Source of the DNA: Escherichia phage ZG49
DNA: 40,291 nucleotides
Sequence record: NC_047777.1
Reading direction: 5' to 3' (one strand)
The position numbers and the translations under genes are program-made. Under the pieces are notes generated by a model that was not told the origin of the DNA, ran no database searches, and saw only the letters and a program-made list of their open reading frames with translations. Shown here piece by piece: positions 948-40,291 of this stretch. The first letter of the stretch is position 1; each line of letters begins with the position of its first letter.

Positions 948-976
948 TTGACTACAGGTCCAGACTATGGCTTAAT
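948..976 (+). promoter_or_regulatory. Candidate host sigma70 early promoter (A1-like): TTGACT, 17-nt spacer, CTTAAT, with AT-rich upstream stretch
   Basis: -35 TTGACT at 948-953; weak -10; AT-rich 925-947; position corresponds to T7 early promoter region. Confidence 0.3.
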
Positions 977-1088
977 AGCTTCCGTCAACACGACACGGCA
1001 ACAACCGGATAGTGAAGACGCCTGGTCATCCCGGTTAAGTAGACAGCCTGATAAGTCATACGAACAACAGGCAGATGACAGAAAGTAG

Positions 1089-1118
1089 TTGACAAGATGT
1101 ACCGACTTAAAGTAGTAT
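1089..1118 (+). promoter_or_regulatory. Candidate host sigma70 early promoter (T7 A3-like): TTGACA, 18 nt, TAGTAT
   Basis: TTGACA 1089-1094, TAGTAT 1113-1118, followed by GTACCACAT as downstream of T7 A3 (from memory). Confidence 0.5.
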
Positions 1119-1309
1119 GTACCACATCAACACGAAACAACGGTGACGACCAACACTGAAACGGTCTACCTGAAGTCCTCTGACTGAAGGGAATGCTCTT
1201 TAACAATCTGGATAAACTCTTAATGTGCGCCGATAGCGACTAACTACAGGGTCTTTGAGTCTACATCTGAAGGCCCTGACTGATAGTCACTAACTAAAGG
1301 ATAAACAAG

Positions 1310-1834: not shown

Positions 1835-2289
1835 CTTATGGTCTCTGCCAGCACCACGTCACCAACGCCCGGCTTATGGTCGAGACCGGGCAGTTAGACC
1901 ACGAGATGACGACCAGTGGCAACTCTATCAGGTGCTGCGAGATTGCTTCTCACGGTCTCCGGTATTCTCTCGACCTGCTGACCTGTATCACAAGTGGTAC
2001 GAGATATTCCAAGCTGCACACGACAGGTCTGAGACCGAGACTGTGCGGGAAGGTCTGATGGATGTACTGATGGCGCTGGACGCTTGCGCTAACTTCGGGT
2101 CTGACATTCAGTTTGAGATAAGCCCACGAAATGTACGGGCTGTGAATGGTAAGCTGATACTAGTGGATTGTTTCTTCCTTGTGTCCAAGCTGCCAGAGGT
2201 GAGGGCGTTAAGATGGTAACTTATGGTCTCTGCCAGCACCACGTCACCAACGCCCGGCTTATGGTCGAGACCGGGCAGTTAGACCACGA
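1520..2289. repeat. Tandem duplication A: two identical 385-bp copies (1520-1904, 1905-2289)
   Basis: Direct reading; ORFs 1310-1834 and 1932-2219 share an identical C-terminal 95 aa; 1783-2058 and 2168-2362 share their N-terminus. Confidence 0.9.
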
Positions 2290-2362
2290 TTGGGCTATGC
2301 GTCTCTTGAAAGTGGTCTACAGGAGACGCAAGCGCATACACGATAGTTTACACACTGAGTGA
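2213..2362 (+). CDS. Small hypothetical protein (49 aa) overlapping kinase 3' end; start uncertain (track ORF begins at a TTG at 2168)
   Basis: ATG at 2213 preceded by GAGGTGAG; intact only in copy 2 of duplication A; copy at 1828 is chimeric. Confidence 0.3.
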   Translation: MVTYGLCQHHVTNARLMVETGQLDHDWAMRLLKVVYRRRKRIHDSLHTE

Positions 2363-2428
2363 TAGACGAGAGGTCATCGACTGATAGGTGGCCTCAAAGA
2401 TTATCACTTAAATTGATAGGAGTTAACT

Positions 2429-2596
2429 ATGAAATTTACAGGAATAGCACTTTACGTAACGATTATTATGGCGTGGCTGACTGCGGTATTCACTGATGGG
2501 AACGCATTACGACTAGGCTGGATGGCAGTGGATATTATCTTCTCTCCGGTAGGGGTCGTGCGGGGCATCTTGATGTGGTTTGGATTGGCGGGATAA
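2429..2596 (+). CDS. Small hydrophobic early protein (55 aa, predicted membrane peptide)
   Basis: ATG at 2429 with AGGAG RBS; hydrophobic sequence MKFTGIALYVTIIMAWLTAVF...; below the 60-aa cutoff of the ORF track. Confidence 0.4.
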   Translation: MKFTGIALYVTIIMAWLTAVFTDGNALRLGWMAVDIIFSPVGVVRGILMWFGLAG

Positions 2597-2599
2597 ACT

Positions 2600-2743
2600 A
2601 TGAGTGTGGGATATTTGGTATGCCTGTCTCCGGTCATCTTTCTGATAGCTTGGGGGATATACGATTGTATTAAACGGAAATCACGATTCATGTGCAACCT
2701 CGCGAACGTCTGGGATATAGCAACTATTGGGAGCAAACTGTAA
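2600..2743 (+). CDS. Small hydrophobic early protein (47 aa)
   Basis: ATG at 2600 directly after previous stop; stop overlaps next start (TAATG). Confidence 0.3.
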   Translation: MSVGYLVCLSPVIFLIAWGIYDCIKRKSRFMCNLANVWDIATIGSKL

Positions 2744-3069
2744 TGAATAAGTCATACGGGATTAATCTGGTACACTCTATGGATGCAGAAATGAACATGT
2801 TGAGCCTACTGGCTACAGGCTACCGTCACGGGACCTCAAGTCACACCATTCGTCAACAGCAGGAGCGCGACCGTGTACTTCAGGCACGACTCCGGGCAGA
2901 GGGCCATAAGTCCGAACTGATGTGTCTGGCGTATGGCGGACGACCGATCACTGACGATGGTAAACTTCTGGTATCAGGCTGGAAGGCGATAGACCAACGG
3001 TCAACCATCAAGCACACGACCAAAGGTGACTTCAGTCATCTTCACGCTAACCCACTGATATGCAAGTAA
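2743..3069 (+). CDS. Hypothetical early protein (109 aa)
   Basis: ATG at 2743 overlapping upstream stop; in frame with track ORF 2692-3069; no recognisable motif. Confidence 0.5.
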   Translation: MNKSYGINLVHSMDAEMNMLSLLATGYRHGTSSHTIRQQQERDRVLQARLRAEGHKSELMCLAYGGRPITDDGKLLVSGWKAIDQRSTIKHTTKGDFSHLHANPLICK

Positions 3070-3076
3070 TTATGAC

Positions 3077-3094
3077 TTAACTATCACTATAGGA
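3077..3094 (+). promoter_or_regulatory. Phage RNAP promoter TTAACTATCACTATAGGA, upstream of the RNAP gene
   Basis: Matches the 18-bp consensus found at 10 other intergenic sites; predicted +1 at the first G of TATAGG. Confidence 0.65.
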
Positions 3095-3166
3095 CTCAAG
3101 GTCTAAGACTCCAAGTGAAAGACCAAAGAGACTCTAAGTGAAAGACTAATAACAAGGACTTTAAGT

Positions 3167-5848
3167 ATGAGCGTCATCTCTATTGACAAACACGACTTCT
3201 CTGATGTGTCGAACGCCATTGAGCCGTTTAACCTGCTGGCTGACCACTACGGGCAAGACCTTGCAGTCAAACAGCTTCAGCTTGAGCATGAGGCATATAC
3301 AGAAGGCGAGCGACGTTTCATCAAGAACCTTGAGCGACAGACTGAGCGCGGGGAACTGGCAGACAATCAGGTCGCCAAGCCTTTGATGCAGACTCTGGTC
3401 CCTAAGATTGCGCAAGCCGTCAGGGAGTGGCACGAAGGCCTAGACGGGAAGCTGTCAACCTCGCGTCCTAGCGTAGCGTTCACCATGTTGAGCACTGAAG
3501 AGAAGGCCGTAAAGGACCGCTCTATGCGCATCTCCTGTGAGTCCGCTGCGGTTATCATACTGAAGGTCATACTCTCCAAGCTGGTCAAGCCTGAAGGGAT
3601 ACCGATTACACCGATGTCCTCCGCGATAGGTCGCACACTTGAGGACGAAATCCGCTTCGGTCGCATCCGTGACAAAGAGAAGGAGCACTTCAAGAAGACG
3701 ATAGCTGAGAACCTGAACAAGCGAGTTGGGGCATCCTACAAGAAAGCCTACATGCAAGCGGTCGAGGCGTCCATGCTGGAGCAAGGCCAACTGGAAGATG
3801 CATGGGGGACTTGGAGTCCTACAGAGGCTGTCCACGTTGGCATCAAGATGCTCGAGATTGTCATCCAGTCAACACAACTGGTCGAGCTTAAGCGGTACGG
3901 TGCTGGTAATGCAGCGGCTGACGTAGAGATGGTCCACCTGTCAGACTTCTGGGTCAAGAAGATGGCACAACGAGGATTCAGCCTTGCGGGTATCGCCCCA
4001 GTCTACCAGCCTTGCGTCGTTCCACCTAAGCCGTGGACTGGTGTCGTAGGTGGTGGGTACTGGGCCAAAGGTCGCAGACCGTTACCATTGATTCGCTTAG
4101 GGTCTAAGTCTGCGGTAGCACGTTATGAAGACGTATACATGCCTGAAGTCTATGACGCTGTGAACATCATTCAGAATACACCTTGGAAAGTTAACAAGAA
4201 GGTTCTGGACGTGGTGAACATGGTCGAGAAGTTGAACAACACGCCTATTGATGACATCCCTCAGATGGAACCGCTGAAGCCTGAGGACTATGCTGGTGAG
4301 ACCGAGGAGGAACTCAAGGCATGGAAGAAGGCTGCTGCTGGTATCTATCGCCGCGAGAAGGCCAGACAGTCACGCAGATTATCACTGAGCTTTATCGTTA
4401 ACCAAGCAAACAAGTTCTCTCAGTTCAAGACCATCTGGTTCCCGTACAACATGGATTGGCGTGGTCGTGTCTACGCTGTCCCGATGTTCAACCCTCAGGG
4501 TAACGACATGCAGAAGGGTCTCCTGACGCTGGCAGTCGGCAAGCCTATTGGTGCTGACGGTTTCAAATGGCTGAAGGTCCACGGTGCAAACTGTGCGGGT
4601 GTCGATAAAGTCACCTTCGATGAGCGCATCAAGTGGGTGGAAGACAACCACGAAAACATCATGGCTGCTGCTAAGGCACCGATGGATAGTATTGAGTGGT
4701 GGGGCAAGTTAGACTCTCCGTTCTGTTTCCTCGCGTTCTGCTTCGAGTATGCTGGCGTAATGCACCACGGCCTGTCTTACTCCTGCTCGCTGCCGATAGC
4801 GTTCGATGGGTCCTGCTCTGGTATTCAGCACTTCAGTGCGATGCTTCGTGACCACATCGGTGGACATTCAGTAAACCTGACGCCATCCGGTAAGGTACAA
4901 GACATCTACCGCATTGTGTCTGACCGCATTGAGGAGGAGCTTAAAGTCCTGCTGATTAACGGTACTGACAACGAGATGGTCACTCACGAGGATAAGAAAA
5001 CTGGTGAGATTACCGAACGTATCAAGCTGGGGACACGAGAGCTGGCCCGTCAGTGGCTGACATACGGTATGTCACGCAAGGTCACTAAGCGTTCAGTCAT
5101 GACTCTGGCATACGGGTCAAAAGAGTACGGCTTCGCAGACCAAGTTTACGAGGACATCGTGATGCCAGCGATTGACTCAGGGTCTGGCGCTATGTTCACT
5201 GAACCAAGCCAAGCGTCTCGCTTCATGGCAAAGATGATTTGGGAAGCTGTGAGTGTGACAGTAGTTGCTGCGGTTGACGCGATGAAGTGGCTTCAAGGTG
5301 CTGCCAAGCTGCTGGCTGCTGAGGTGAAGGACAAGAAGACTGGAGAAATCCTGAAGCCTTGCCTTCCGGTACACTGGGTCACACCTGATGGGTTCCCGGT
5401 CTGGCAGGAGTACCGCAAGAAGGATACCACTCGTCTGAACCTGATGTTCTTAGGGTCATTCAATCTTCAGCCTACCGTCAACAGAGGTACGAAGAAAGAG
5501 CTGGACAAGCACAAGCAGGAGTCAGGCATTAGCCCTAACTTCGTCCACTCACAAGATGGTAGCCACCTGCGGAAGACTGTAGTCCACACTCACCGCAAGT
5601 ATGGCGTGATGTCATTCGCAGTGATTCACGATAGCTTCGGGACCATCCCTGCTGACGCTGAGTATCTGTTCCGTGGTGTCCGTGAGACGATGGTCGAGAC
5701 ATACCGCGATAACGATGTGCTGCTTGACTTCTACGAGCAGTTTGAATACCAGCTTCATGAAAGCCAGCGCGACAAGTTGCCTGAGCTTCCGAAGAAAGGT
5801 AAACTGAATATCGAAGACATCTTGTCTTCAGACTTTGCATTCGCTTAA
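3167..5848 (+). CDS. Single-subunit DNA-directed RNA polymerase (gp1-like, 893 aa)
   Basis: Near-colinear similarity to T7 RNAP; C-terminus ...HSQDGSHLRKTVV...HDSFGT...SDFAFA matches the T7 C-terminus. Confidence 0.97.
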   Translation: MSVISIDKHDFSDVSNAIEPFNLLADHYGQDLAVKQLQLEHEAYTEGERRFIKNLERQTERGELADNQVAKPLMQTLVPKIAQAVREWHEGLDGKLSTSRPSVAFTMLSTEEKAVKDRSMRISCESAAVIILKVILSKLVKPEGIPITPMSSAIGRTLEDEIRFGRIRDKEKEHFKKTIAENLNKRVGASYKKAYMQAVEASMLEQGQLEDAWGTWSPTEAVHVGIKMLEIVIQSTQLVELKRYGAGNAAADVEMVHLSDFWVKKMAQRGFSLAGIAPVYQPCVVPPKPWTGVVGGGYWAKGRRPLPLIRLGSKSAVARYEDVYMPEVYDAVNIIQNTPWKVNKKVLDVVNMVEKLNNTPIDDIPQMEPLKPEDYAGETEEELKAWKKAAAGIYRREKARQSRRLSLSFIVNQANKFSQFKTIWFPYNMDWRGRVYAVPMFNPQGNDMQKGLLTLAVGKPIGADGFKWLKVHGANCAGVDKVTFDERIKWVEDNHENIMAAAKAPMDSIEWWGKLDSPFCFLAFCFEYAGVMHHGLSYSCSLPIAFDGSCSGIQHFSAMLRDHIGGHSVNLTPSGKVQDIYRIVSDRIEEELKVLLINGTDNEMVTHEDKKTGEITERIKLGTRELARQWLTYGMSRKVTKRSVMTLAYGSKEYGFADQVYEDIVMPAIDSGSGAMFTEPSQASRFMAKMIWEAVSVTVVAAVDAMKWLQGAAKLLAAEVKDKKTGEILKPCLPVHWVTPDGFPVWQEYRKKDTTRLNLMFLGSFNLQPTVNRGTKKELDKHKQESGISPNFVHSQDGSHLRKTVVHTHRKYGVMSFAVIHDSFGTIPADAEYLFRGVRETMVETYRDNDVLLDFYEQFEYQLHESQRDKLPELPKKGKLNIEDILSSDFAFA

Positions 5849-7867: not shown

Positions 7868-8122
7868 ATGTTTAAGAACTTAATGTTCAATCGTTATACC
7901 AGTACATTCCACCTGTCTCACAACCCATTAGCTTGCATTAAGCGCAACGAGAAGCTGGGCTACTTCGGGAAGGCCGTTAAGCTGTCACCTACAGTCTTCG
8001 CTCTGATTACTCCGGGCAAAGCTGAAGAGGCTCGCCAGAAGCGTGCGACCCACGTACCTGTGGTCTACACTAAGTGGCCTCGAGTTCGTCTGTTCGTTGA
8101 GTTCGTGAAGGAGGTGTTCTGA
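7868..8122 (+). CDS. gp1.6-like hypothetical protein (84 aa)
   Basis: RBS AAGGAGG; position between ligase and gp1.7. Confidence 0.5.
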   Translation: MFKNLMFNRYTSTFHLSHNPLACIKRNEKLGYFGKAVKLSPTVFALITPGKAEEARQKRATHVPVVYTKWPRVRLFVEFVKEVF

Positions 8123-8854
8123 TGGGATGTATAGCTTGCTTAGAGAAACCAGAGGTAACTCCTACAGATGACCAACCTTCCACTGAGTCAATCGACGCTG
8201 TCCGCAAGCCGTCCCACTATCAGGTATTTGACGGAGTGGAGTCCATTGAGATTATCGCTCGGTCCATGACTGTCAGCGAGTTCCGTGGGTTCTGCATGGG
8301 TAACGTCCTGAAGTATCGACTCCGAGCTGGTAAGAAGTCCGAGCTGGCTACTATGGAGAAGGACCTGAACAAAGCGGACTTCTATCAGGAGCTGTTCGAC
8401 CTGAGCTGGGCTACTTCGGGAAGGCCGTTAAGCTGTCACCTACAGTCTTCGCTCTGATTACTCCGGGCAAAGCTGAAGAGGCTCGCCAGAAGCGTGCGAC
8501 CCACGTACCTGTGGTCTACACTAAGTGGCCTCGAGTTCGTCTGTTCGTTGAGTTCGTGAAGGAGGTGTTCTGATGGGATGTATAGCTTGCTTAGAGAAAC
8601 CAGAGGTAACTCCTACAGATGACCAACCTTCCACTGAGTCAATCGACGCTGTCCGCAAGCCGTCCCACTATCAGGTATTTGACGGAGTGGAGTCCATTGA
8701 GATTATCGCTCGGTCCATGACTGTCAGCGAGTTCCGTGGGTTCTGCATGGGTAACGTCCTGAAGTATCGACTCCGAGCTGGTAAGAAGTCCGAGCTGGCT
8801 ACTATGGAGAAGGACCTGAACAAAGCGGACTTCTATCAGGAGCTGTTCGACCTG
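7953..8854. repeat. Tandem duplication B: two identical 451-bp copies (7953-8403, 8404-8854)
   Basis: Direct reading; ORFs 8122-8457 and 8573-8881 share their first 94 aa. Confidence 0.9.
8122..8457 (+). pseudogene. Chimeric gp1.7 copy created by duplication B (native C-terminus replaced by out-of-frame gp1.6 sequence)
   Basis: Identical to 8573-8881 until ...QELFDL, then diverges at the duplication junction. Confidence 0.6.
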
Positions 8855-9221: not shown

Positions 9222-9920
9222 ATGGCTAAAGAGCAACTGAAGACTTTCACCACTCCGGTAGCTGGTATCGTTGAGCCTTACGCATGGCTGAACAAAGCAG
9301 ACACCAAGTTTAACGAGCGTGGTGAGCATAAGGTTAACCTGACATTCGACCTGAGCAACCCGAAGGTCCGTAAGATGATTGATGTCTTACAGAAGATTCA
9401 CGACGATGCGTATGCGAAAGCACTTGCAGACCACGAGAAGAACCCACCTCAGGTTCAGCGTGGCAAGAAGCCTATTGAACCACGAGAAGGCGACATGCCG
9501 TGGATTGAGAATGGTGACGGTACTGTTACCATGAAGTTTAAATGCTTCGCGTCTTACCTGAAGGATGGTAAGTCTGAGCCTATCATATTACGGTTCTACG
9601 ACACCGATGCTAAGTTAATCCGTGACGTCCCGAATATTGGCGCTGGCTCAAAGCTGAAGGTCAAGTTTAAAGTCCTGCCGTTTAAGTGGAACGCTGCGAC
9701 TGGTGCAAGCGTTAAGCTACAGCTTGAGTCCTGCCTTCTGGTAGAACTGAAGGAGTGGAAAGGCGATGGTGCTGGTGGCGATGGTGGTTGGGGTGATGAT
9801 GAAGACCTCGGTACTGGCTACAAAGCGTCAACCGATGGTGACTTCGGGTCTGATGACTTCGGTGACGATGGTTCCGAAGGTGGTGACGACTCCAACTCTG
9901 GTGGCGATTACGACTTCTAA
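9222..9920 (+). CDS. Single-stranded DNA-binding protein (gp2.5-like, 232 aa)
   Basis: Same length as T7 gp2.5; acidic Gly/Asp-rich C-terminal tail ending in aromatic F (GGDYDF). Confidence 0.9.
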   Translation: MAKEQLKTFTTPVAGIVEPYAWLNKADTKFNERGEHKVNLTFDLSNPKVRKMIDVLQKIHDDAYAKALADHEKNPPQVQRGKKPIEPREGDMPWIENGDGTVTMKFKCFASYLKDGKSEPIILRFYDTDAKLIRDVPNIGAGSKLKVKFKVLPFKWNAATGASVKLQLESCLLVELKEWKGDGAGGDGGWGDDEDLGTGYKASTDGDFGSDDFGDDGSEGGDDSNSGGDYDF

Positions 9921-9976
9921 TGAAACTTAAAGAGAAACTAGAGGCTTACTCTGAGGTTTCTCCTGGTGGATGTAGT

Positions 9977-10426
9977 ATGAGTAGAGGACATCAAGTAGGT
10001 GCTTATCGCTCTGGACTCGAAGCAAAGAACCAAGAGTGGCTTGAGAAGAATGGCGTAAAAGCTGAATACGAAGCATATAAAATAGGCTACGTAGTACCAT
10101 CCAGCGACCACTTCTACACACCAGATTTTATCCTTCCTAACGGTATCATCGTGGAGACCAAAGGTCTCTTCGATAGTGATGACCGTAAGAAGCACCTTCT
10201 GGTACGAGAACAGCACCCTGAGTTAGACATTCGGTTCGTGTTCTCAAGTTCACGCTCCAAGTTATACAAGGGGTCTCCGACCACGTATGGCGCATGGTGC
10301 GAAAAGAACGGCTTTAAGTTTGCCGACAAGTTTATCCCGGTTGAGTGGCTGAGAGAGGTGACTGTACGTCTACCTTCAGGTATTCTCATCCCCAAGAAGA
10401 AAGGAGTTAAGGATATTCGCACCTAA
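9977..10426 (+). CDS. Endonuclease I (gp3-like Holliday junction resolvase, 149 aa from ATG 9977)
   Basis: Strong similarity to T7 gp3 (GAYRSGLE, YTPDF, PNGI.VETKGL..SDDRKKHLL.REQHPELDIR.VFSSSR.KLYKGSPT); track ORF starts earlier at 9920. Confidence 0.85.
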   Translation: MSRGHQVGAYRSGLEAKNQEWLEKNGVKAEYEAYKIGYVVPSSDHFYTPDFILPNGIIVETKGLFDSDDRKKHLLVREQHPELDIRFVFSSSRSKLYKGSPTTYGAWCEKNGFKFADKFIPVEWLREVTVRLPSGILIPKKKGVKDIRT

Positions 10427-11009
10427 AGCGAGACCCTTAAGTTTATGGCTGAAAAATACTCAGTAAGTGAGACAACCATAAGTCGAATCAGGAACAACAA
10501 GAGGTGGAAATAATAATGGGAAGTAAAGTACAATTCATGCCACGCAAGTCAACTGACGCTATCTTCGTTCACTGTTCGGCTACCAAGCCAGAGATGGACA
10601 TCGGGGTAGAGACCATCCGTATGGTGTTCTCAAGTTCACGCTCCAAGTTATACAAGGGGTCTCCGACCACGTATGGCGCATGGTGCGAAAAGAACGGCTT
10701 TAAGTTTGCCGACAAGTTTATCCCGGTTGAGTGGCTGAGAGAGGTGACTGTACGTCTACCTTCAGGTATTCTCATCCCCAAGAAGAAAGGAGTTAAGGAT
10801 ATTCGCACCTAAAGCGAGACCCTTAAGTTTATGGCTGAAAAATACTCAGTAAGTGAGACAACCATAAGTCGAATCAGGAACAACAAGAGGTGGAAATAAT
10901 AATGGGAAGTAAAGTACAATTCATGCCACGCAAGTCAACTGACGCTATCTTCGTTCACTGTTCGGCTACCAAGCCAGAGATGGACATCGGGGTAGAGACC
11001 ATCCGTATG
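10238..11009. repeat. Tandem duplication C: two identical 386-bp copies (10238-10623, 10624-11009)
   Basis: Direct reading; ORF 10504-10812 has the lysozyme N-terminus fused to the endonuclease I C-terminus. Confidence 0.9.
10504..10812 (+). pseudogene. Chimeric ORF: lysozyme N-terminal 40 aa fused to endonuclease I C-terminal 62 aa
   Basis: N-terminus identical to 10890-11360 and C-terminus identical to 9920-10426; switch at the duplication junction. Confidence 0.6.
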
Positions 11010-11360
11010 TGGCACAAGCAACAAGGCTGGCTGGACGTAGGCTACCACTTTATCATCAAGCGAGATGGCACTGTGGAAGAGGGTCGCCCGGTCAATGTCG
11101 TAGGGTCACACGTTAAGGACTGGAACTCAAAGTCCGTAGGCGTCTGCCTTGTAGGTGGAATTGACGCTAAGGGCAAGTTTGAAGCTAACTTCACTCCGGC
11201 CCAGATGAACTCCCTGCGCAACAAGCTGGCTGACCTGAAGGCCCTGTATCCTCAGGCAGAAATAAAAGCACACCATGATGTAGCACCTAAGGCGTGTCCA
11301 AGTTTCGACTTGCAACGCTGGCTGTCTACCGATGAACTGGTCACTTCCGACCGTGGTTAA
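10902..11360 (+). CDS. Lysozyme / N-acetylmuramoyl-L-alanine amidase (gp3.5-like)
   Basis: Strong similarity to T7 lysozyme (STDAIFVHCSATKP, WLDVGYHFIIKRDGTVE, HH..APKACPSFD, ELVTSDRG); ATG 10902 after GAGGTGGA. Confidence 0.9.
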   Translation: MGSKVQFMPRKSTDAIFVHCSATKPEMDIGVETIRMWHKQQGWLDVGYHFIIKRDGTVEEGRPVNVVGSHVKDWNSKSVGVCLVGGIDAKGKFEANFTPAQMNSLRNKLADLKALYPQAEIKAHHDVAPKACPSFDLQRWLSTDELVTSDRG

Positions 11361-13555: not shown

Positions 13556-13580
13556 AAGGTCATTCACATCGAGTGGCCTT
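13556..13580 (+). promoter_or_regulatory. RNA hairpin (10-bp stem, 5-nt loop); candidate RNase III site (R4.7-like)
   Basis: AAGGUCAUUC / GAGUGGCCUU; same flanking motif as 6183 and 37388. Confidence 0.45.
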
Positions 13581-13608
13581 TATGATTAGACTAAACGGAG
13601 GATTAACC

Positions 13609-15780
13609 ATGTTTGACCTTAAGAGTATCTGGGGTTCTGACATAGAGACCAACGGTCTCCTTGATACAGTCTCCCAGTTTCACTGTGGGGTCCTGATTAA
13701 CGCCGAGTCGAATGAGACCCTTAAGTATGGGGTAGCTCCGATGGTCGGTATCGTCGGTGGCTTCAAAGAGTATGTACAGAAGGTGGAAGAGATTGCCGCA
13801 TCACCTGATGGTATGCTGGTATTCCACAACGGTATCAACTATGACGTACCTGCTATTGACAAGCTGAAACGTCTGTACTTTGGGAAACGTTTCAACTTCC
13901 CGAAACACAAGATGATTGATACCTTGGTGCTGGGCCGCTTGATGTATCCCAACATTAAGTTCTCAGACATGGGAGCAGTGAAAGCTGGTCGTCTGCCACC
14001 TAAGATGATGGGACGCCAGTCTCTTGAGGCTTGGGGCTATCGTCTCGGTGAGATGAAAGGTGAGTACAAACACGATTACGTTGCCAAGTGCAAGGCTGAA
14101 GGTATCGAATATAAGGCTGGGGACGAATGGTTGTTCCCATCTCAGGAGATGCTAGACTATAACGTTCAAGACGTTGTGGTCACACTGGCGTTGTTCAAGA
14201 AGTTCCTGACTGACAAGTATTACTTCCAGTCTGAACAGTTTGCTTTCGACCAGATTTATGCGTTGCGTCTGGAACATGATGCTGCGTGGACCTGTGCGAA
14301 GATGGAACGTAACGGCTATCCGATGAACACCGAGATGGTCGAAGGTTTATATCGTGAACTCACCGTCAAACGTGCAGAGCTGTTGGACAAGCTGCGTTCG
14401 ACTTTCGGTAGCTGGTATGCACCAAAGGGAGGCAAGGAGTTCTTCAAGCACCCACGGACAGGCAAGGACCTTCCGAAGTATCCGCGAGTCGTGTATCCTA
14501 AGGTCGGGTCAGTATTCAAGAAGCCGAAGAACAAAGCTCAACGCTTAGGTCTGGAGCCTTGCGAGTTAGACTCACGAGACACGATGGAAGGAGCACCGTT
14601 CACGCCAATCACTTACGTTGAGTTTAATCCGGGAAGCGGAGACCACTTAGCGAAAGTCTTGATGGAGCGTGGTTGGGAGCCTGTGGACTTCACTGACACT
14701 GGGAAACCTGTAGTCGATGACGAGACGTTAGAACACGTTAAGCTACCAGACGCAGAGGCTCAGGCTTGCGTAGAGCTGGTCCGTGAGTATCTGGTAGTCC
14801 AGAAGCGCATCGGTCAGGCGGCTGAAGGTAAGAACGCATGGTTGAAACTTGTAGGTCCAGACGGACGTATGCACGGTTCAATCAACCCATGCGGTGCAGT
14901 AACAGGACGTGCGACTCATAGTTCACCAAACATGGCTCAGGTCCCTGCTAACGGTGCTCCGTATGGTGAGATTTGCCGTGGTGCTTTCGGTGCAGCTTGG
15001 AACAAGACGGATGGTAAGCCAGACCCTTGGATTCAAGTGGGTGTGGATGCTTCAGGTCTTGAGCTTCGTTGTCTGGGGAACCGAGCAGCTCCGTTTGATG
15101 GTGGTGCCTATGCGAAGACTGTGGTCGAAGGTGACATCCACTGGGCCAACGCAGTAAACGCTGGGTTAGCACCTAATGTCCCACGAGATAAGTTGAACCA
15201 CGACCATGATGCTTTCCGTAACAACGCTAAGACGTTCATCTATGCGTTCCTGTATGGTGCAGGGGCCGCTAAGATTGGACTGATAGTCGGCGGTGGTAAG
15301 AAGGAAGGTTCAGCTCTCATGAAGAAATTCATTGAGGGTACACCAGCCATCAAGGACCTCAGGGAAGCTGTGAGTAAGACGTTAATCTCAGACTCTAAGT
15401 GGGTGGACGGAGAGAACATCGTTAAGTGGAAACGCCGTTGGTTGCGTGGACTTGATGGTCGCCGTATCCACATCCGGTCTCCGCACTCAGCACTGAACGC
15501 CTTACTTCAAGGTGACGGTGCGGTAGTTTGTAAAACGTGGTTCACTTGGCTTGAGAGGAACCTAGAAGCTAAAGGCTACGTGCATGGCTGGGATGGTGAC
15601 TTTGCGATTATGGCTTTTGTCCATGACGAAGTTCAGGTTGCCGCAAGGACTATGGAAATAGCTGAGGACATAGTTAGGGTGGCGCAGTCCACAATGCGAG
15701 AGGTTGGAGAGTTCTACCAGTTCAAGTGTGTGCTTGACACCGAGGGTAAGATAGGACCTACGTGGCGCGAATGTCACTAA
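13609..15780 (+). CDS. DNA polymerase (gp5-like, family A) with thioredoxin-binding loop
   Basis: Colinear similarity to T7 DNAP including the thioredoxin-binding insert (TFGSWY.PKGG.E.F.HPRTGK.LPKYPR...PKVG..FKKPKNKAQR); ATG 13609 after GGAGG. Confidence 0.95.
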   Translation: MFDLKSIWGSDIETNGLLDTVSQFHCGVLINAESNETLKYGVAPMVGIVGGFKEYVQKVEEIAASPDGMLVFHNGINYDVPAIDKLKRLYFGKRFNFPKHKMIDTLVLGRLMYPNIKFSDMGAVKAGRLPPKMMGRQSLEAWGYRLGEMKGEYKHDYVAKCKAEGIEYKAGDEWLFPSQEMLDYNVQDVVVTLALFKKFLTDKYYFQSEQFAFDQIYALRLEHDAAWTCAKMERNGYPMNTEMVEGLYRELTVKRAELLDKLRSTFGSWYAPKGGKEFFKHPRTGKDLPKYPRVVYPKVGSVFKKPKNKAQRLGLEPCELDSRDTMEGAPFTPITYVEFNPGSGDHLAKVLMERGWEPVDFTDTGKPVVDDETLEHVKLPDAEAQACVELVREYLVVQKRIGQAAEGKNAWLKLVGPDGRMHGSINPCGAVTGRATHSSPNMAQVPANGAPYGEICRGAFGAAWNKTDGKPDPWIQVGVDASGLELRCLGNRAAPFDGGAYAKTVVEGDIHWANAVNAGLAPNVPRDKLNHDHDAFRNNAKTFIYAFLYGAGAAKIGLIVGGGKKEGSALMKKFIEGTPAIKDLREAVSKTLISDSKWVDGENIVKWKRRWLRGLDGRRIHIRSPHSALNALLQGDGAVVCKTWFTWLERNLEAKGYVHGWDGDFAIMAFVHDEVQVAARTMEIAEDIVRVAQSTMREVGEFYQFKCVLDTEGKIGPTWRECH

Positions 15781-32600: not shown

Positions 32601-33512
32601 ACTGGTAGTAAGCGTAAGTTCGATGACCGCTGGCTTAAGACCGCTGGTATCTCTGACGAGCAGTGGAAGGGCATTAAGTCCCTAATCCGTGAGTCAGTGA
32701 CTCGTGGTCCAGACGGGAAGTACACCATCAAGGATAAGAAGGCGTTCAGTCAGGACCCAAGGGCTATGGACCTATGGCGTATGGGTGACACCATCGCAGA
32801 TGAAACGTTACTCCGTCCTCATAAGCTGTCCAACATGGACGCCAAGGCTTATGGTCCTCTCGCTAAGACTGTCCTTCAGTTTAAGAACTTCGTCATCAAG
32901 TCCATCAATGGTCGAACCATGCGAACATTCTATAACGCCACGAAGAACAACCGAGCGATGGACGCTGCACTGTCTACTGTGATGTCTATGGGTCTGGCTG
33001 GTATCTACTACATGGCTCAGGCGCACGTCAAGGCTTACGCTATGCAGGACGGTCGAGACCGAGATTATCTCAAGCAAGCTCTGGACCCAACGATGATTGG
33101 CTATGCGGCCCTGTCCCGTAGTTCACATCTGGGTGGACCACTTGGGGTAGCTAACATTCTAGGTGGCATCGCTGGGTATGAGGACACTAAGATGCTCCGT
33201 TCGTCTATCCTCCCGCGTTCACCTACAGAGAAACCCGAACGTGCCATCCCATATGGTGCGGCTACAAGTGACCCTGTGATGAATGTCGTTGGTAACTTCT
33301 TGGAGCAGGTCCCGGCTTTCGGCTATGCTGCTAACGTTGGCGCTTCGGCATACAACTTGGCTGGCTACCTCAAGGCTGATACTCGTGTCAACGAGCGGGA
33401 CTACATGACCGGGATGTATAATACGTTCCGTGAACTGGTTCCGAACGACCCCATTACCCAGAAGTTGCTGCTTGGAACGTTTGAGGAGCAAGGTATCCAC
33501 ATCAAGGACTAA
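29625..33512 (+). CDS. Internal virion protein D (gp16-like) with a divergent N-terminal domain
   Basis: From about residue 190 onward colinear with T7 gp16 (RSTFFGF, TPTRWN, VVTGGSP.NL, RLEARETARN, LVRSPTGMQSGASGK, NSFLEARNLFDSD, RRVNGDIAIM, LLNGTTNYLLDA, RAMDLWR, YALSRSS); first about 145 aa unlike the T7 transglycosylase domain; ATG 29625. Confidence 0.9.
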   Translation: MATRGIRNNNPGNIRVGKDQWEGMTGDDGAFVTFDSPESGVRALGKNLLSYGRQGYDSIEKIINRWAPPNENDTKAYIDSVVAATGIPATQSLDLSDHDTLSSLAQAISFHETGSRYDPEVYQKGVARALNGISPKTPPVSANVFDALTEGLKAKPKVALGENLPTAAGLNIEGQAPEAPNESFGEMFYKSTGDTMQEREDRSTWFGFGAATEAEVKNSMVGVAIRAGKTEDSLDVIGDVFNPTRWNNHKWTREELDQIRNAGVLPQYYGVITGGSPQNLTELINLALENQKLDQEKAKAGTGAQLAAGVIGAGVDPLTYVPIAGQVGKGGKLVNKMFTVAAQSGALAGVSEMARTSVAGGDAHVAEAILGGALFGGGMTAIADGLGRALGRNTNEFAGPATRLEARETARNVDGQDLSRLPIQEGEQTFSHQGVKFADVPNEPGSVRLEDGSILIGENPLNPKTRQVFDEVIEPERAAAGVNLGGLTEIGLKLLRSENPEIRGVAADLVRSPTGMQSGASGKIGTTASDVFERLRAVDHRFYNDIDDAVTEALKDPYFQTAFWRDSGAFRQDIYQRVSMAIEDGSGNLKAELTPGELKVYDLLKNQFDAKREMMENPAMFGRPDAQSIFPGSRFKGTYVPHVYSNQMKELYIKELGSPEALQEAIKKSWLTSYASRPEVKKRVDEALLEADPTLTPEGLAAAVDKYANDKAYGISHTEQFERSSVMEENINGLVGLENNSFLEARNLFDSDMSIVLPNGQTFSVNNLREWDMDKIVPAYNRRVNGDIAIMAGTGKTTKEMKDLVETMMNKAGDDGKLKGEVSTLRDTLKILTGRSRRDGADDAAFATVMRTMTDLSFFAKNAYMGVQNLTEIGGMLARGNVRAMLHGVPIFRDLAFRNKKVGASEIKDLHNVLFGKELDDSIRPSKQDVIDRLRSYSDLGRGTATALGTAKYYTGELAVRSPFTKVLNGTTNYLLDAGRQGFLSDIVEHSLTGSKRKFDDRWLKTAGISDEQWKGIKSLIRESVTRGPDGKYTIKDKKAFSQDPRAMDLWRMGDTIADETLLRPHKLSNMDAKAYGPLAKTVLQFKNFVIKSINGRTMRTFYNATKNNRAMDAALSTVMSMGLAGIYYMAQAHVKAYAMQDGRDRDYLKQALDPTMIGYAALSRSSHLGGPLGVANILGGIAGYEDTKMLRSSILPRSPTEKPERAIPYGAATSDPVMNVVGNFLEQVPAFGYAANVGASAYNLAGYLKADTRVNERDYMTGMYNTFRELVPNDPITQKLLLGTFEEQGIHIKD

Positions 33513-33527
33513 ACTATCACTATAGGA
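33510..33527 (+). promoter_or_regulatory. Phage RNAP promoter TAAACTATCACTATAGGA (phi17-like)
   Basis: Exact consensus upstream of the tailspike gene. Confidence 0.75.
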
Positions 33528-33576
33528 AACGGGAGGCGCTACCATAGGTCTCCGTTTAAATAACAAAGGAGGCATA

Positions 33577-35637
33577 ATGTCCACGATTACACAATTCCCT
33601 TCAGGAAACACTCAGTACAGGATTGAGTTCGACTACCTAGCCAGAACGTTTGTTGTTGTTACGCTGGTGAATAGCTCTAACCCTACCCTGAACCGTGTAC
33701 TGGAAGTTGGTCGAGATTACCGATTCCTTAACCCAACGATGATTGAGATGTTGGTTGACCAATCAGGTTTCGACATCGTTCGTATTCACCGTCAGACTGG
33801 AACTGACTTAGTGGTAGACTTCAGGAATGGCTCAGTGTTGACAGCTAGTGACCTGACCAATTCAGAGCTTCAGGCTATCCATATTGCAGAAGAAGGTCGA
33901 GACCAAACGGTTGACTTAGCGAAGGAATATGCCGATGCTGCTGGTAGCTCTGCTGGCAACGCTAAGGATAGCGAGGACGAAGCACGCCGAATCGCTGCGA
34001 GTATCAGGGAAGCTGGTCTAATTGGCTATATTACCCGTCGCTCCTTCGAGAAAGGCTACAACGTTACAACATGGAGCGAGGTCCTGCTATGGGAAGAGGA
34101 TGGTGATTATTACCGCTGGGATGGTACGCTTCCAAAGAACGTTCCTGCTGGTTCAACTCCTGAAACTTCCGGTGGGATTGGATTAGGTGCGTGGGTTAGT
34201 GTTGGTGATGCTGCTTTAAGAAGTCAGATTTCAAACCCGGAAGGGGCAATACTCTACCCGGAATTGCAGATGGCAAGATGGCGTGATGAGGGTGATGTTC
34301 GAGGCTGGGGTGCTAAAGGGGATGGTGTAACAGATAGTACGGAGAATATAGCTGCTTCACTAAATTCTCAAAAAGCTGTCGTAGCATCAGAAGGTGTATT
34401 CTCTAGTTCTGGTATTAATAGTAATTACTGTAACTTAGACGGTAGAGGCAGTGGTGTACTAAGTCACCGTTCAAGTACAGGTAACTACTTAGTATTTAAC
34501 AATCTACGCTCAGGTCGCTTAAGTAATATTACGGTAGAAAGTAATAAGGCGACCGATACCACTCAAGGGCAGCAGGTATCTCTTGCTGGTGGCAGTGATG
34601 TTACTATAAGTGATGTTAATTTCTCAAACGTTAAGGGCGCTGGTTTCAGTTTAATCACATACCCTAATGATGCACCCTCTGATGGGCTTATGATTAAAGG
34701 CATTCGAGGTAGCTACTCCGGCTATGCTACTAATAAGGCGGCTGGATGCATACTTGCTGATTCCTCAGTTAACTCCCTCATAAATAACGTCATTGCTAAG
34801 AACTACCCTCAGTTCGGGGCTGTAGAACTGAAAGGTACAGCCAGTTATAACATAGTCAGCAATGTTATAGGGGCAGACTGCCAGCATGTAACTTACAACG
34901 GTACAGAAGGGTCAATAGCTCCCTCTAACAACCTTATCAATGGGGTAGTGGCTAATAATCCTAAATATGCAGCGGTTGTTGCAGGCAAAGGTAGTACCAA
35001 CTTAATCTCCGATGTGCTTGTAGATTTCTCAACCTCTGATGCTAGGCAGGCTCATGGTGTTACAGTAGAAGGTTCTGATAACGTCATAAATAATGTGCTT
35101 ATGTCAGGGTGTGATGGTACTAACTCTTTAGGGCAAGCTCAGACTGCTACAATTGCGCGCTTTATAGATACGGCTAATAACAACTATGCGTCTGTATTTC
35201 CTAGCTACAGTGCTACAGGTGTTATTACTTTCGAATCAGGTTCTACCCGTAACTTCGTAGAGGTAAAGCATCCGGGAAGGAGAAACGACCTTCTCAGTGC
35301 TACTGGTACTATTGAAGGTAAAGTTACTATTGACGGCACTAGTAATAGCAACGTAGTGCACGCTCCTGCATTAGGACAGTACATAGGCAGTATGTCCGGT
35401 AGGTTCGAATGGCGGATTAAGTCCATGTCACTTCCGTCAGGCGTTCTTACCTCGGCTGATAAGTACAGAATGCTTGGGGATGGTGCTGTGTCATTAGCTG
35501 TAGGTGGGGGTACTTCTTCTCAAGTTCGCCTATTTACTTCTGATGGTACTTATCGGACAGTATCACTCACCAACGGTAACGTGCGTCTTCCTACCAGTAG
35601 CACAGGTTATTTGCAGTTAGGTTCTAGCTCCCTCTAA
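33577..35637 (+). CDS. Tailspike (gp17-like), N-terminal 686-aa fragment truncated by tandem duplication D
   Basis: N-terminal 150 aa resemble the T7 gp17 adaptor domain (EFDYLARTFVVVTL, DYRF, VDFRNGSVL.ASDL, IAEEGRD); then a beta-helix-like region (WGAKGDGVTD); reading frame breaks at the duplication junction at 35625. Confidence 0.8.
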   Translation: MSTITQFPSGNTQYRIEFDYLARTFVVVTLVNSSNPTLNRVLEVGRDYRFLNPTMIEMLVDQSGFDIVRIHRQTGTDLVVDFRNGSVLTASDLTNSELQAIHIAEEGRDQTVDLAKEYADAAGSSAGNAKDSEDEARRIAASIREAGLIGYITRRSFEKGYNVTTWSEVLLWEEDGDYYRWDGTLPKNVPAGSTPETSGGIGLGAWVSVGDAALRSQISNPEGAILYPELQMARWRDEGDVRGWGAKGDGVTDSTENIAASLNSQKAVVASEGVFSSSGINSNYCNLDGRGSGVLSHRSSTGNYLVFNNLRSGRLSNITVESNKATDTTQGQQVSLAGGSDVTISDVNFSNVKGAGFSLITYPNDAPSDGLMIKGIRGSYSGYATNKAAGCILADSSVNSLINNVIAKNYPQFGAVELKGTASYNIVSNVIGADCQHVTYNGTEGSIAPSNNLINGVVANNPKYAAVVAGKGSTNLISDVLVDFSTSDARQAHGVTVEGSDNVINNVLMSGCDGTNSLGQAQTATIARFIDTANNNYASVFPSYSATGVITFESGSTRNFVEVKHPGRRNDLLSATGTIEGKVTIDGTSNSNVVHAPALGQYIGSMSGRFEWRIKSMSLPSGVLTSADKYRMLGDGAVSLAVGGGTSSQVRLFTSDGTYRTVSLTNGNVRLPTSSTGYLQLGSSSL

Positions 35638-36333
35638 CAACCTTATCAATGGGGTAGTGGCTAATAATCCTAAATATGCAGCGGTTGTTGCAGGCAAAGG
35701 TAGTACCAACTTAATCTCCGATGTGCTTGTAGATTTCTCAACCTCTGATGCTAGGCAGGCTCATGGTGTTACAGTAGAAGGTTCTGATAACGTCATAAAT
35801 AATGTGCTTATGTCAGGGTGTGATGGTACTAACTCTTTAGGGCAAGCTCAGACTGCTACAATTGCGCGCTTTATAGATACGGCTAATAACAACTATGCGT
35901 CTGTATTTCCTAGCTACAGTGCTACAGGTGTTATTACTTTCGAATCAGGTTCTACCCGTAACTTCGTAGAGGTAAAGCATCCGGGAAGGAGAAACGACCT
36001 TCTCAGTGCTACTGGTACTATTGAAGGTAAAGTTACTATTGACGGCACTAGTAATAGCAACGTAGTGCACGCTCCTGCATTAGGACAGTACATAGGCAGT
36101 ATGTCCGGTAGGTTCGAATGGCGGATTAAGTCCATGTCACTTCCGTCAGGCGTTCTTACCTCGGCTGATAAGTACAGAATGCTTGGGGATGGTGCTGTGT
36201 CATTAGCTGTAGGTGGGGGTACTTCTTCTCAAGTTCGCCTATTTACTTCTGATGGTACTTATCGGACAGTATCACTCACCAACGGTAACGTGCGTCTTCC
36301 TACCAGTAGCACAGGTTATTTGCAGTTAGGTTC
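34916..36333. repeat. Tandem duplication D: two identical 709-bp copies (34916-35624, 35625-36333) inside the tailspike gene
   Basis: Direct reading; ORFs 33577-35637 and 35657-36817 share about 230 identical residues. Confidence 0.9.
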
Positions 36334-36817
36334 CAATGCAATGACCCCAGATAGTACTAATACATACGCATTAGGTTCCGCAAGTCGAGCATGGTCTGGC
36401 GGTTTTACTCAATCAGCATTCACTGTTGTCTCAGATGCTAGGGATAAAACAGAGCCTCTTAATATCTCAGATGCTTTACTGGATGCTTGGTCTGAAGTTG
36501 ACTTTGTGCAGTTTCAGTACTTGGACCGAATTGAGGAGAAGGGTGCAGACTCAGCTAGATGGCACTTCGGCATCATCGCTCAGCGAGCTACGGAGGCCTT
36601 CGAACGTCACGGTATAGATGCACATCGCTATGGCTTCCTGTGCTTCGACAGTTGGGATGATGTGTACGAGGAAGATGCCAATGGCTCTCGTAAACTGATT
36701 ACACCAGCAGGTTCCCGCTATGGTATTCGTTACGAGGAAGTACTGATATTAGAGGCTGCGTTGATGCGGCGTACTATTAAGCGTATGCAGGAAGCATTAG
36801 CTGTTATGTCTAAGTGA
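35657..36817 (+). CDS. Tailspike C-terminal fragment (386 aa) including an intramolecular-chaperone-like domain
   Basis: C-terminus GSASRAWSGGFTQSAFTVVSDARDKTEP... resembles peptidase S74-type chaperone domains of phage tailspikes; begins at an internal Met created by the duplication. Confidence 0.65.
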   Translation: MANNPKYAAVVAGKGSTNLISDVLVDFSTSDARQAHGVTVEGSDNVINNVLMSGCDGTNSLGQAQTATIARFIDTANNNYASVFPSYSATGVITFESGSTRNFVEVKHPGRRNDLLSATGTIEGKVTIDGTSNSNVVHAPALGQYIGSMSGRFEWRIKSMSLPSGVLTSADKYRMLGDGAVSLAVGGGTSSQVRLFTSDGTYRTVSLTNGNVRLPTSSTGYLQLGSNAMTPDSTNTYALGSASRAWSGGFTQSAFTVVSDARDKTEPLNISDALLDAWSEVDFVQFQYLDRIEEKGADSARWHFGIIAQRATEAFERHGIDAHRYGFLCFDSWDDVYEEDANGSRKLITPAGSRYGIRYEEVLILEAALMRRTIKRMQEALAVMSK

Positions 36818-36921
36818 GTAATACTGGTACGGTATTTTCGCACAATGAAATCGTTGAACACGCTAACCAACGTATGTAACAACTTTGGGTCACGGACGAC
36901 CCGCTTTAAACTGGAGGTTTT

Positions 36922-37116
36922 ATGATTGAGTTAGACTTCAAGAATGAGGTCCTTAAAGCCTCTCCTATCGTCGGGACCGCTGCGGCTGATGGTGCCAGTC
37001 GGTTCTTCTTCGGACTTACACTGAACGAATGGTTCTACGTTGCAGCTATCGCGTACACCGTTGTCCAGATTGGTGTGCTAGTCTACAAAACGATTAAAGG
37101 AGGTGGTAAAACATGA
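36922..37116 (+). CDS. Holin (gp17.5-like, 64 aa)
   Basis: Single hydrophobic segment FYVAAIAYTVVQIGVLVY; position between tail fiber and terminase small subunit; RBS GGAGG. Confidence 0.65.
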   Translation: MIELDFKNEVLKASPIVGTAAADGASRFFFGLTLNEWFYVAAIAYTVVQIGVLVYKTIKGGGKT

Positions 37117-37376
37117 CGCAGATGGACTTAGAGAAGTTCCTCTTGATGCTTGATACTGAACGTGCTCGACTCATGCTGCAAGACCTGCGGGATGACACTA
37201 AGCGTTCACCTCAGCTCTACAACGCCATTGAGAAGCTGCTTGCTCGTCACAACTTTGTGTTAAGCAAGGTGTCCGTGGACGAGAAGACTCTGGCTGATAT
37301 GGAGGCCCTGAACGCAGAGTACGATAAGGTGCTTTCAGTGACTGAGGATAATGACACCGGGTATGGTGTTCAATAA
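37113..37376 (+). CDS. Terminase small subunit (gp18-like, 87 aa)
   Basis: Size and position (T7 gp18 89 aa); RBS AAGGAGGTGG. Confidence 0.7.
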   Translation: MTQMDLEKFLLMLDTERARLMLQDLRDDTKRSPQLYNAIEKLLARHNFVLSKVSVDEKTLADMEALNAEYDKVLSVTEDNDTGYGVQ

Positions 37377-39890: not shown

Positions 39891-40291
39891 CCTAAGGCTT
39901 GCACCGATGGAAGGAGGGTGATATTAATCATAATCCCTCCAATACAGATAGTCACCGACCATAGATACAGGAGGTATGTAGCATATGGCAAAGACCAAAG
40001 CTGTACTTAAAGCTCTGGCGACCAATCGAGCTACATACAGGTTTCTTGCTGCTGTTCTACTTGCTGCTGGCGTTACTGCTGGAAGTAAGTGGGTCGGGTG
40101 GGTCGAGACTCTCGTATGTTCTCTGGTGTCTCAGTGTAATTAACGCAATCATGGTAACGATTCATGAGCGGAAGACCTAAGGTCAGTACGTGGATAAAGA
40201 CTCACTCTACTGACCTTAGCTACTGTAGTCAAGGACTTTAGGTAACACCTTAATAGAAGCTCACCTAGGGTCATCCTACTTATTGGTCTAT
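39891..40291. repeat. Right direct terminal repeat, identical to 1-401
   Basis: Direct comparison of both ends. Confidence 0.8.

What the first reader, a model, noticed from the sequence alone, without database searches (positions are those of the whole stretch)
33577..36817. Tailspike architecture suggests a capsule- or polysaccharide-targeting enzyme
Ignoring the duplication, the reconstructed 843-aa protein combines a T7 gp17-type adaptor, a region with beta-helix hallmarks (WGAKGDGVTD, repetitive Asn/Gly/Ser/Thr-rich segments) and a C-terminal intramolecular-chaperone-like domain. This is typical of depolymerase tailspikes rather than the T7 fibre. Together with the thioredoxin-binding loop in the DNA polymerase, it points to an encapsulated enterobacterial host.
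Basis: inference. Interest (0 to 1): 0.4.

Follow-up and report, generated by a model that had tools for sequence, protein, structure and literature searches.

The report
K5 capsule lyase phage tailspike
This is the tailspike gene of a K1F-like coliphage; it carries the well-known K5 (heparosan) capsule lyase, so it is ordinary, and in this sequence it is broken by an exact 709-base tandem duplication that is probably an assembly artefact.

Summary
Removing one copy of an exact 709-bp tandem duplication (34916-35624 = 35625-36333) restores a 2532-nt gene for an 843-aa protein. It has three parts: a T7 gp17-type N-terminal anchor (PF03906), a central lyase domain, and a C-terminal self-cleaving chaperone (PF13884). 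The protein is 96.9% identical to a solved 843-aa tail spike (PDB 9vvr). Over residues 242-716 it is 92% identical to the K5 heparosan lyase KflA (PDB 2x3h), a parallel beta-helix. At least 14 Kayfunavirus/coliphage records carry the intact 2532-bp gene at 95-96% DNA identity, and published relatives already annotate it as "K5 lyase". The backbone is about 95% identical to phage K1F, with K1F's endosialidase module swapped for the K5 lyase module. So this is already known. The main caveat is that the window does not encode the 843-aa protein. The duplication shifts the frame and separates the anchor and most of the beta-helix (ORF1, 686 aa) from the chaperone (ORF2). It is one of four exact tandem duplications unique to this sequence, so an artefact is most likely. 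If it is real, the allele should be null.

The parts
33510..33526 (+). Phage RNA-polymerase promoter-like site upstream of gene 17 (TAAACTATCACTATAGG).
   Evidence: One of 11 + strand matches in the window, against 0 expected in shuffles. Also seen as a repeat family.
33566..33572 (+). Shine-Dalgarno sequence AAGGAGG, 4 nt before the ATG of gene 17.
   Evidence: Read directly from the sequence.
33577..35637 (+). ORF1 (686 aa). It holds native gene 17 codons 1-682, a changed residue 683, then two out-of-frame residues (tail ...GSSSL) and a stop just past the duplication junction.
   Evidence: Pfam finds PF03906 and PF18668 but no chaperone domain.
33604..33921 (+). T7 gp17-type N-terminal virion-anchor domain (aa 10-115).
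   Evidence: PF03906, E = 6e-16. Matches T7 gp17 N-terminal structures 7boz and 8dsp over aa 6-116. Aa 1 to about 228 are almost identical to K1F gp17.
34042..34209 (+). Tail_spike_N (TSP1/Gp66-type) small N-proximal domain (aa 156-211).
   Evidence: PF18668, E = 3e-19. Matches CBA120-type tailspike structures 4oj5, 5w6h and 6nw9.
34300..35624 (+). K5 (heparosan) lyase domain, KflA-type, aa 242-683 (first pass through the sequence).
   Evidence: 92.0% identical to PDB 2x3h over aa 242-716. phrog_14895 'tail spike protein', 1310 bits. 90% identical to K1-5 gp46 K5 lyase.
34825..34896 (+). Candidate catalytic residues E417, K419, H437 and Y440. These correspond to KflA E206, K208 and Y229; which residues are catalytic is recalled from Thompson et al. 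2010, a paper that could not be retrieved.
   Evidence: The segments AVELKG and CQHVTYNG are identical to 2x3h in the alignment. Codons verified.
34916..35624 (+). Tandem duplication, copy 1 (codon 447 position 2 to codon 683 position 2).
   Evidence: Exact 709-bp identity at offset 709, with no microhomology at the ends.
35625..36333 (+). Tandem duplication, copy 2. It is absent from every relative.
   Evidence: All full-length relatives span 2532 bp, which is 3241 minus 709. A probe across the junction matches 52 records only as two separated pieces. The junction 31-mer is absent from IMG/VR.
35657..36817 (+). ORF2 (386 aa, GTG start, no convincing ribosome-binding site). It corresponds to native codons 458-843 in the native frame.
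   Evidence: Pfam finds only PF13884.
36335..36430 (+). Last 32 residues of the mature spike (aa 684-715). They include the ALGSASRAW motif that precedes the cleavage site.
   Evidence: Aligned with the C-terminus of the 2x3h chain, which ends ...FTVTS.
36431..36817 (+). C-terminal intramolecular chaperone / Peptidase_S74 domain (aa 716-843) plus the stop codon. S716 is the scissile serine (36431-36433) and K721 its partner lysine (36446-36448).
   Evidence: PF13884, E = 3e-13. Matches 3gw6 (K1F endosialidase chaperone) and 3gud (phi29 gp12 chaperone). S716 and K721 are invariant in the alignment that includes K1F gp17. The Ser / Lys+5 mechanism is described in PMC4690869.

Best explanation
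The region is gene 17, the only tailspike gene found in the late region of a K1F-like (Kayfunavirus, T7 supergroup) coliphage.

The intact protein (843 aa) is inferred to form trimers that attach to the tail through a T7 gp17-type N-terminal domain. This is an inference from homology; the 18 chains deposited for 9vvr would fit six trimers.

Its central domain is a KflA-type right-handed beta-helix. KflA binds the E. coli K5 capsule (heparosan) and cuts it by beta-elimination, which lets the phage tunnel through the capsule to the outer membrane. The sequence relationship to KflA is shown here; the activity of this particular protein is inferred.

The C-terminal Peptidase_S74 chaperone is expected to drive trimerisation of the C-terminal stalk and then cut itself off at Ser716 using Lys721. 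The motifs are shown; the cleavage is inferred.

The gene is a module swap. The K1F backbone and gp17 N-terminus are joined, near aa 228, to a K5-lyase cassette that is also found on SP6-like (K1-5, K5A) and N4-like (UE-S5b) phages.

In this window the gene is interrupted by an exact 709-bp frameshifting tandem duplication. It is one of four such duplications found only in this sequence. The most likely cause is a sequence-construction artefact, such as overlapping contigs joined without merging.
For: Identity of the protein:
- 96.9% identical to 9vvr_A over all 843 aa, and 92.0% to KflA 2x3h over 475 aa.
- 97% identical to gp17 of vB_EcoP-R1 and IME177, 90% to K1-5 gp46 'K5 lyase', 86% to UE-S5b 'K5 lyase'.
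- 14 Kayfunavirus/coliphage records hold the intact 2532-bp gene at 94.7-96.3% DNA identity.
- Domain hits from Pfam and PHROGs.

Genome context:
- The flanking structural module is about 95% identical to K1F, where the same slot holds the endosialidase.
- The gene lies between gp16 and the holin, as in its relatives.
- Kayfunavirus relatives are already described with a 'K5 lyase' CDS and UPEC hosts (PMC8614997).

Functional residues:
- E417/K419/Y440 and S716/K721 are conserved.

Mosaic joint.

Artefact reading of the duplication:
- There are four exact tandem duplications of 385, 451, 386 and 709 bp.
- Probes across three of the junctions match 52-219 relatives only as split pieces. For the 385-bp duplication, the relatives' spans equal the query length minus 385.
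- The copies are 100% identical to each other, while the nearest relatives differ by 3-5%.
Against: - No enzymatic or host data exist for this phage. K5 specificity rests on 92% identity and conserved candidate residues.
- 38 substitutions relative to KflA lie in the lyase domain.
- Which residues are catalytic in KflA is recalled from memory, because the primary paper could not be read.
- The artefact reading is an inference, since no reads are available. Three of the four duplications leave intact gene copies, so they could be tolerated in a real genome.
Confidence: 0.88

Rival explanations
1. The 709-bp duplication is real. This genome then carries a null allele of gene 17. ORF1 lacks the last 33 residues of the mature spike and the whole chaperone, so it would not be expected to fold into a trimer. 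Such a genome could only be a defective or minority variant, which would revert readily by recombination between the two copies.
For: The sequence as given contains the duplication. Tandem duplications do arise in T7-type phages (general knowledge). The other three duplications straddle gene boundaries and are coding-neutral, as expected for survivors of selection. At 40291 bp the genome is within the size range of its relatives, 38.8-40.9 kb.
Against: It hits the only tailspike gene found in the late region, whereas all 14 full-length relatives have it intact. There are four independent exact duplications with no divergence between copies, and none is shared with any of about 50-220 relatives. 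An obligately lytic phage with no functional receptor-binding protein could not be propagated.
Confidence: 0.15
2. The spike is intact in reality, but it either targets a polysaccharide other than K5 heparosan or only binds without cleaving.
For: There are 38 substitutions relative to KflA in the catalytic domain. A more distant K5-lyase-like fibre (phage ES17) was reported to bind heparan sulfate on mucosa (PMC7885116).
Against: 92% identity to KflA and 90% to K1-5 gp46. The candidate catalytic segments are unchanged. 11 of the 38 substitutions fall in the first 31 residues compared, next to the recombination joint.
Confidence: 0.05
3. It is a non-enzymatic T7-like tail fibre.
For: The N-terminal PF03906 domain, and the gene's position in the gene 17 slot.
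Against: Similarity to T7 gp17 stops at about aa 116. The rest matches lyase tailspike structures.
Confidence: 0.01

Closest known systems
PDB 9vvr chain A, 'Tail spike protein' (843 aa, 18 chains in the entry)
   Same: Same length, colinear from residue 1 to 843, and 96.9% identical (26 substitutions). All modules are shared.
   Different: 26 substitutions, most of them in the beta-helix. The window's gene is split by the duplication. No paper citing the 9vvr code is in the paper library.
KflA, K5 lyase of coliphage K5A (PDB 2x3h), and gp46 of phage K1-5 (Vectrevirus, SP6-like)
   Same: The catalytic beta-helix, the C-terminal stalk and the chaperone are shared. Identity is 92% to 2x3h over aa 242-716 and 90% to K1-5 gp46. 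The mature C-terminus aligns (...FTV[VT]S).
   Different: KflA/gp46 is 632 aa. According to the review PMC5380687, it attaches through a short N-terminal peptide to a separate adaptor protein. Here about 240 aa of T7 gp17-type anchor plus a Tail_spike_N domain replace that peptide.
gp17 endosialidase of coliphage K1F (Kayfunavirus type species)
   Same: Same genome backbone (about 95% DNA identity) and the same gene slot. The N-terminal residues 1 to about 228 are nearly identical, the GWGAKGDGVTD linker is shared, and the C-terminal chaperone is homologous with the same Ser/Lys pair.
   Different: The central catalytic module differs. K1F's protein is 1064 aa with an endo-N-acetylneuraminidase against the K1 capsule; here it is a K5 lyase beta-helix.
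K5 lyase of Gamaleyavirus (N4-like) phage UE-S5b
   Same: DNA is identical or nearly so from about window position 34259 onward, including the linker. Protein identity is 86% overall.
   Different: It has its own N-terminal region of about 150 aa for a different virion, and it sits next to an endosialidase gene.
T7 gp17 tail fibre
   Same: The N-terminal tail-binding domain (aa 6-116) and the position in the genome.
   Different: No similarity after the anchor. T7 has a shaft and tip domain with no enzyme and no S74 chaperone.

Membership tests
KflA-type K5 (heparosan) lyase tailspike | Catalytic domain homologous to the KflA right-handed parallel beta-helix. | tested here: met
   92.0% identity over 475 aa to PDB 2x3h, E = 3e-280. 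phrog_14895, 1310 bits.
KflA-type K5 (heparosan) lyase tailspike | Proposed catalytic residues retained (KflA E206, K208, Y229; recalled from Thompson et al. 2010, not re-read). | tested here: met
   E417, K419 and Y440 lie in segments identical to 2x3h. Caveat: which residues are catalytic comes from memory (retrieval failed).
KflA-type K5 (heparosan) lyase tailspike | Beta-eliminative cleavage of heparosan, and K5-specific plaques or halos. | not testable with these tools
   Needs enzyme and host assays.
KflA-type K5 (heparosan) lyase tailspike | One uninterrupted reading frame from the anchor to the chaperone. | tested here: not met
   The 709-bp duplication shifts the frame. ORF1 stops at 35637 and the chaperone is on ORF2. 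The feature is met only after one copy is removed.
T7 gp17-type tail-attachment domain (PF03906) | N-terminal domain scoring above the Pfam gathering score, encoded in the gene 17 slot between gp16 and the holin. | tested here: met
   58.9 bits against 25.2. Structures 7boz and 8dsp match aa 6-116. Gene order as in K1F, R1 and IME177.
Peptidase_S74 / C-terminal intramolecular chaperone (PF13884) | Domain scoring above the gathering score, with a scissile Ser and a Lys five residues downstream. | tested here: met
   50.2 bits against 22. The motif is S716-DARD-K721, invariant across the six aligned spikes including K1F. Mechanism as described in PMC4690869.
Peptidase_S74 / C-terminal intramolecular chaperone (PF13884) | Autoproteolytic release after trimer folding. 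| not testable with these tools
   Needs expression of the wild type and an S716A mutant.
Kayfunavirus (K1F-like Studiervirinae) | Genome-wide nucleotide similarity and T7-like gene order with its own RNA-polymerase promoters. | tested here: met
   93-97% identity to Kayfunavirus records over 82-97% of the queries. 11 promoter-like sites against 0 expected.
T7-type non-enzymatic tail fibre | Shaft and C-terminal tip domain homologous to T7 gp17. | tested here: not met
   No match to T7 gp17 beyond aa 116.

The most novel reading that the evidence does not exclude
The four exact tandem duplications are real. This would point to an unusual duplication-prone replication or recombination state in this phage. 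The split gene 17 might still yield a working spike, for example if the chaperone-bearing ORF2 fragment acted in trans or co-assembled with ORF1, or if a mixed population complemented the defect.
Probability: 0.03. Interest if true: 0.45.

Novelty: already known. Interest (0 to 1): 0.08.

Why it matters
There is little new here. The K5 lyase tailspike is a classic, structurally solved capsule depolymerase, and its presence on K1F-like phages is already in the databases, in the PDB and in print.

Two practical points follow:
- The phage's host range can be predicted with confidence as E. coli with the K5 capsule, a group that includes many uropathogenic strains (general knowledge).
- The sequence as given should not be trusted at four places, including this gene, before it is used for annotation, engineering or therapy.

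The locus is a clean example of receptor-enzyme cassette exchange. The same lyase cassette sits on T7-like, SP6-like and N4-like virions, joined at a conserved linker.

Tried and rejected
- Structure prediction of the central domain (aa 242-682, single sequence) gave mean pLDDT 38.7, which is uninformative. I did not run a fold search on it. Solved structures at 92-97% identity make the prediction unnecessary.
- The primary KflA papers could not be retrieved, and a text search for the residue names found nothing relevant. Which residues are catalytic therefore rests on memory, supported by a numbering offset of 211 that lands exactly on E, K and Y.
- No paper citing 9VVR was found.
- The duplication junction is not in IMG/VR. 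ORF1, gp16 and the spanin are not in the protein-to-contig collection as exact sequences, so the source record could not be checked.
- NCBIfam has no model for either ORF.
- A single circular contig rotated without trimming its overlap was rejected as the sole cause, because there are four separate duplications.
- Programmed frameshifting to rescue the gene was rejected. ORF1 stops 4 codons after the junction (after 13 nt), and there is no slippery motif (GGTTCTAGCTCCCTCTAA). Read-through would in any case give a 1079-aa protein with a repeated helix segment.
- The sigma-70 promoter and terminator scan of 33300-37200 found nothing above the shuffled expectation.
- For the 451-bp and 386-bp duplications, comparing record spans was ambiguous because relatives differ in gene content there. 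Junction probes settled it.
Full report
**What is in the sequence**

The interval 33577-36817 holds two ORFs on the + strand: 33577-35637 (686 aa) and 35657-36817 (386 aa, GTG start). Between them lies an exact tandem duplication of 709 bp, 34916-35624 = 35625-36333. The copies are 100% identical and there is no microhomology at the ends. Because 709 = 3n+1, the first frame runs out of register at the junction and stops four codons later (tail ...GSSSL*). Removing one copy gives 2532 nt, which encodes 843 aa plus a stop. A phage-promoter-like site (33510-33526) and an AAGGAGG ribosome-binding site precede the ATG.

**Domain anatomy of the reconstructed protein**

Pfam gives three hits above the curated cut-offs:
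- PF03906 Phage_T7_tail, aa 10-115
- PF18668 Tail_spike_N, aa 156-211
- PF13884 Peptidase_S74 'chaperone of endosialidase', aa 716-776

PHROGs gives phrog_14895 'tail spike protein' at 1310 bits over aa 209-843.

Against solved structures:
- The whole protein matches PDB 9vvr_A, an 843-aa 'Tail spike protein' present as 18 chains. The match is end to end with 26 differences (96.9% identity).
- Residues 242-716 match the K5 lyase KflA (2x3h) at 92.0% identity.
- The N-terminus matches T7 gp17 N-terminal structures only over aa 6-116.
- The C-terminus matches the chaperone domains of K1F endosialidase (3gw6) and phi29 gp12 (3gud).

So the centre is an enzyme domain, not a fibre shaft. No Pfam beta-helix model hit it. 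The beta-helix assignment rests on the KflA crystal structure, described as a trimeric beta-helical protein in PMC8822698.

**Functional residues**

An offset of 211 between this protein and KflA numbering puts E417, K419 and Y440 at KflA E206, K208 and Y229. I recall these as the proposed catalytic residues from Thompson et al. 2010, but the paper could not be retrieved. The surrounding segments AVELKG and CQHVTYNG are identical to 2x3h.

The chaperone carries S716 and K721. This matches the scissile Ser and the Lys at +5 described for the K1F and T5 chaperones (PMC4690869). Both residues are invariant in an alignment that includes K1F gp17. The 2x3h chain ends ...FTVTS, at the position aligned with S716.

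**Genome context and mosaic origin**

The window is a near-complete K1F-like genome:
- The first 25 kb is 93-95% identical to Kayfunavirus records.
- The last 15 kb is 95-97% identical to vB_EcoP-R1 and to K1F, except at gene 17.
- Gene order is gp12-gp16, gene 17, holin, gp18, spanin, terminase, as in K1F, R1 and IME177.

In K1F the gene 17 slot holds the 1064-aa endosialidase. Protein and DNA alignments show the following:
- The window is identical to K1F gp17 DNA up to about 34259 (aa ~228).
- Downstream of that point it is near-identical to the K5 lyase of the N4-like phage UE-S5b.
- From about aa 254 it also matches gp46 of the SP6-like phage K1-5.
- The GWGAKGDGVTD stretch is common to K1F gp17 and to this protein, so it lies in a linker region close to the joint. 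It is not a beta-helix signature in itself.

The same lyase cassette therefore sits on three virion platforms with three different N-terminal adaptors.

**Is it known?**

Yes. Fourteen Kayfunavirus/coliphage records hold the intact 2532-bp gene at 94.7-96.3% DNA identity. Several of these are the UPEC phages of PMC8614997, whose text names the CDS 'K5 lyase'. K5 lyase biology is textbook material: it cleaves the heparosan capsule by beta-elimination, and it is used by phages K5A and K1-5 (PMC5380687 and PMC6966330; PMC7885116).

**The duplication**

No relative has it:
- All full-length hits span 2532 bp.
- A 301-nt probe centred on the junction matches 52 records only as two pieces about 709 bp apart.
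- The junction 31-mer is absent from IMG/VR.

A scan of the whole window found four exact tandem duplications:
- 1519-1903, twice (385 bp)
- 7953-8403, twice (451 bp)
- 10238-10623, twice (386 bp)
- 34916-35624, twice (709 bp)

There is also a 401-nt terminal repeat. Junction probes or span comparisons show that relatives lack all four duplications. The first three straddle gene boundaries, so intact copies of the flanking genes remain. Only the gene 17 duplication is intragenic.

As encoded, ORF1 carries the anchor and the helix up to residue 683. It lacks the last 33 residues of the mature spike and the chaperone, which is on ORF2. From established knowledge of this chaperone family, such a truncated protein should not trimerise. 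A real phage with this allele would then lack the only tailspike found in its late region.

Four unshared duplications with no divergence between copies fit a construction artefact best, for example overlapping contigs or amplicons concatenated without merging. I put that at about 0.8, but it cannot be proven without reads.

**Verdict**

This is already known and of low interest. The practical message is that the gene is broken in this sequence, and that the sequence has three further suspicious duplications.

A single-sequence AlphaFold run on the central domain was uninformative (pLDDT 38.7). It was not needed, given the solved homologues.

Noticed in passing
window 1519-2288, 7953-8854, 10238-11009 (and 34916-36333): There are three further exact tandem duplications (385, 451 and 386 bp; none is a multiple of 3) besides the one in gene 17. 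Each straddles a gene boundary, so intact copies of the flanking genes remain. Examples are endonuclease I 9920-10426 and amidase 10890-11360. No related phage record has these junctions. The pattern suggests unmerged overlaps or another construction artefact.
   Followed up: partly
window 1-401 and 39891-40291: An exact 401-nt direct terminal repeat, as expected for a T7-type linear genome. I did not compare its length with relatives.
   Followed up: no
window 700-793: A head-to-tail array of a 15-nt unit (AGTCCTACAACCTAC, about 5 copies) lies near the left end, just inside the terminal repeat region.
   Followed up: no
window 3077, 6157, 7821, 9162, 11598, 17932, 20777, 21764, 26154, 33510, 39784 (+ strand): Eleven copies of a phage RNA-polymerase promoter-like 17-mer (TAAACTATCACTATAGG, up to 2 mismatches) occur, all on the + strand, against none expected by chance.
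   Followed up: partly
window 13573-15780: The DNA polymerase is colinear with T7 gp5, including the thioredoxin-binding insertion (FGSWY...KNKAQR...NP segment conserved).
   Followed up: yes
window ~34259 (gene 17 codon ~228): This is the recombination joint. Upstream the DNA is identical to K1F gp17. Downstream it is near-identical to the K5 lyase of the N4-like Gamaleyavirus UE-S5b, and from about codon 254 to gp46 of the SP6-like phage K1-5. The same lyase cassette is thus carried on three phage families with different adaptors.
   Followed up: partly
L004 (PP301341.1 UE-S5b) 1-3418; L003 (K1-5) 1373-4756: In both the N4-like UE-S5b and the SP6-like K1-5, the K5 lyase gene sits next to an endosialidase gene (dual K1/K5 specificity). 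The window has a single spike gene.
   Followed up: no
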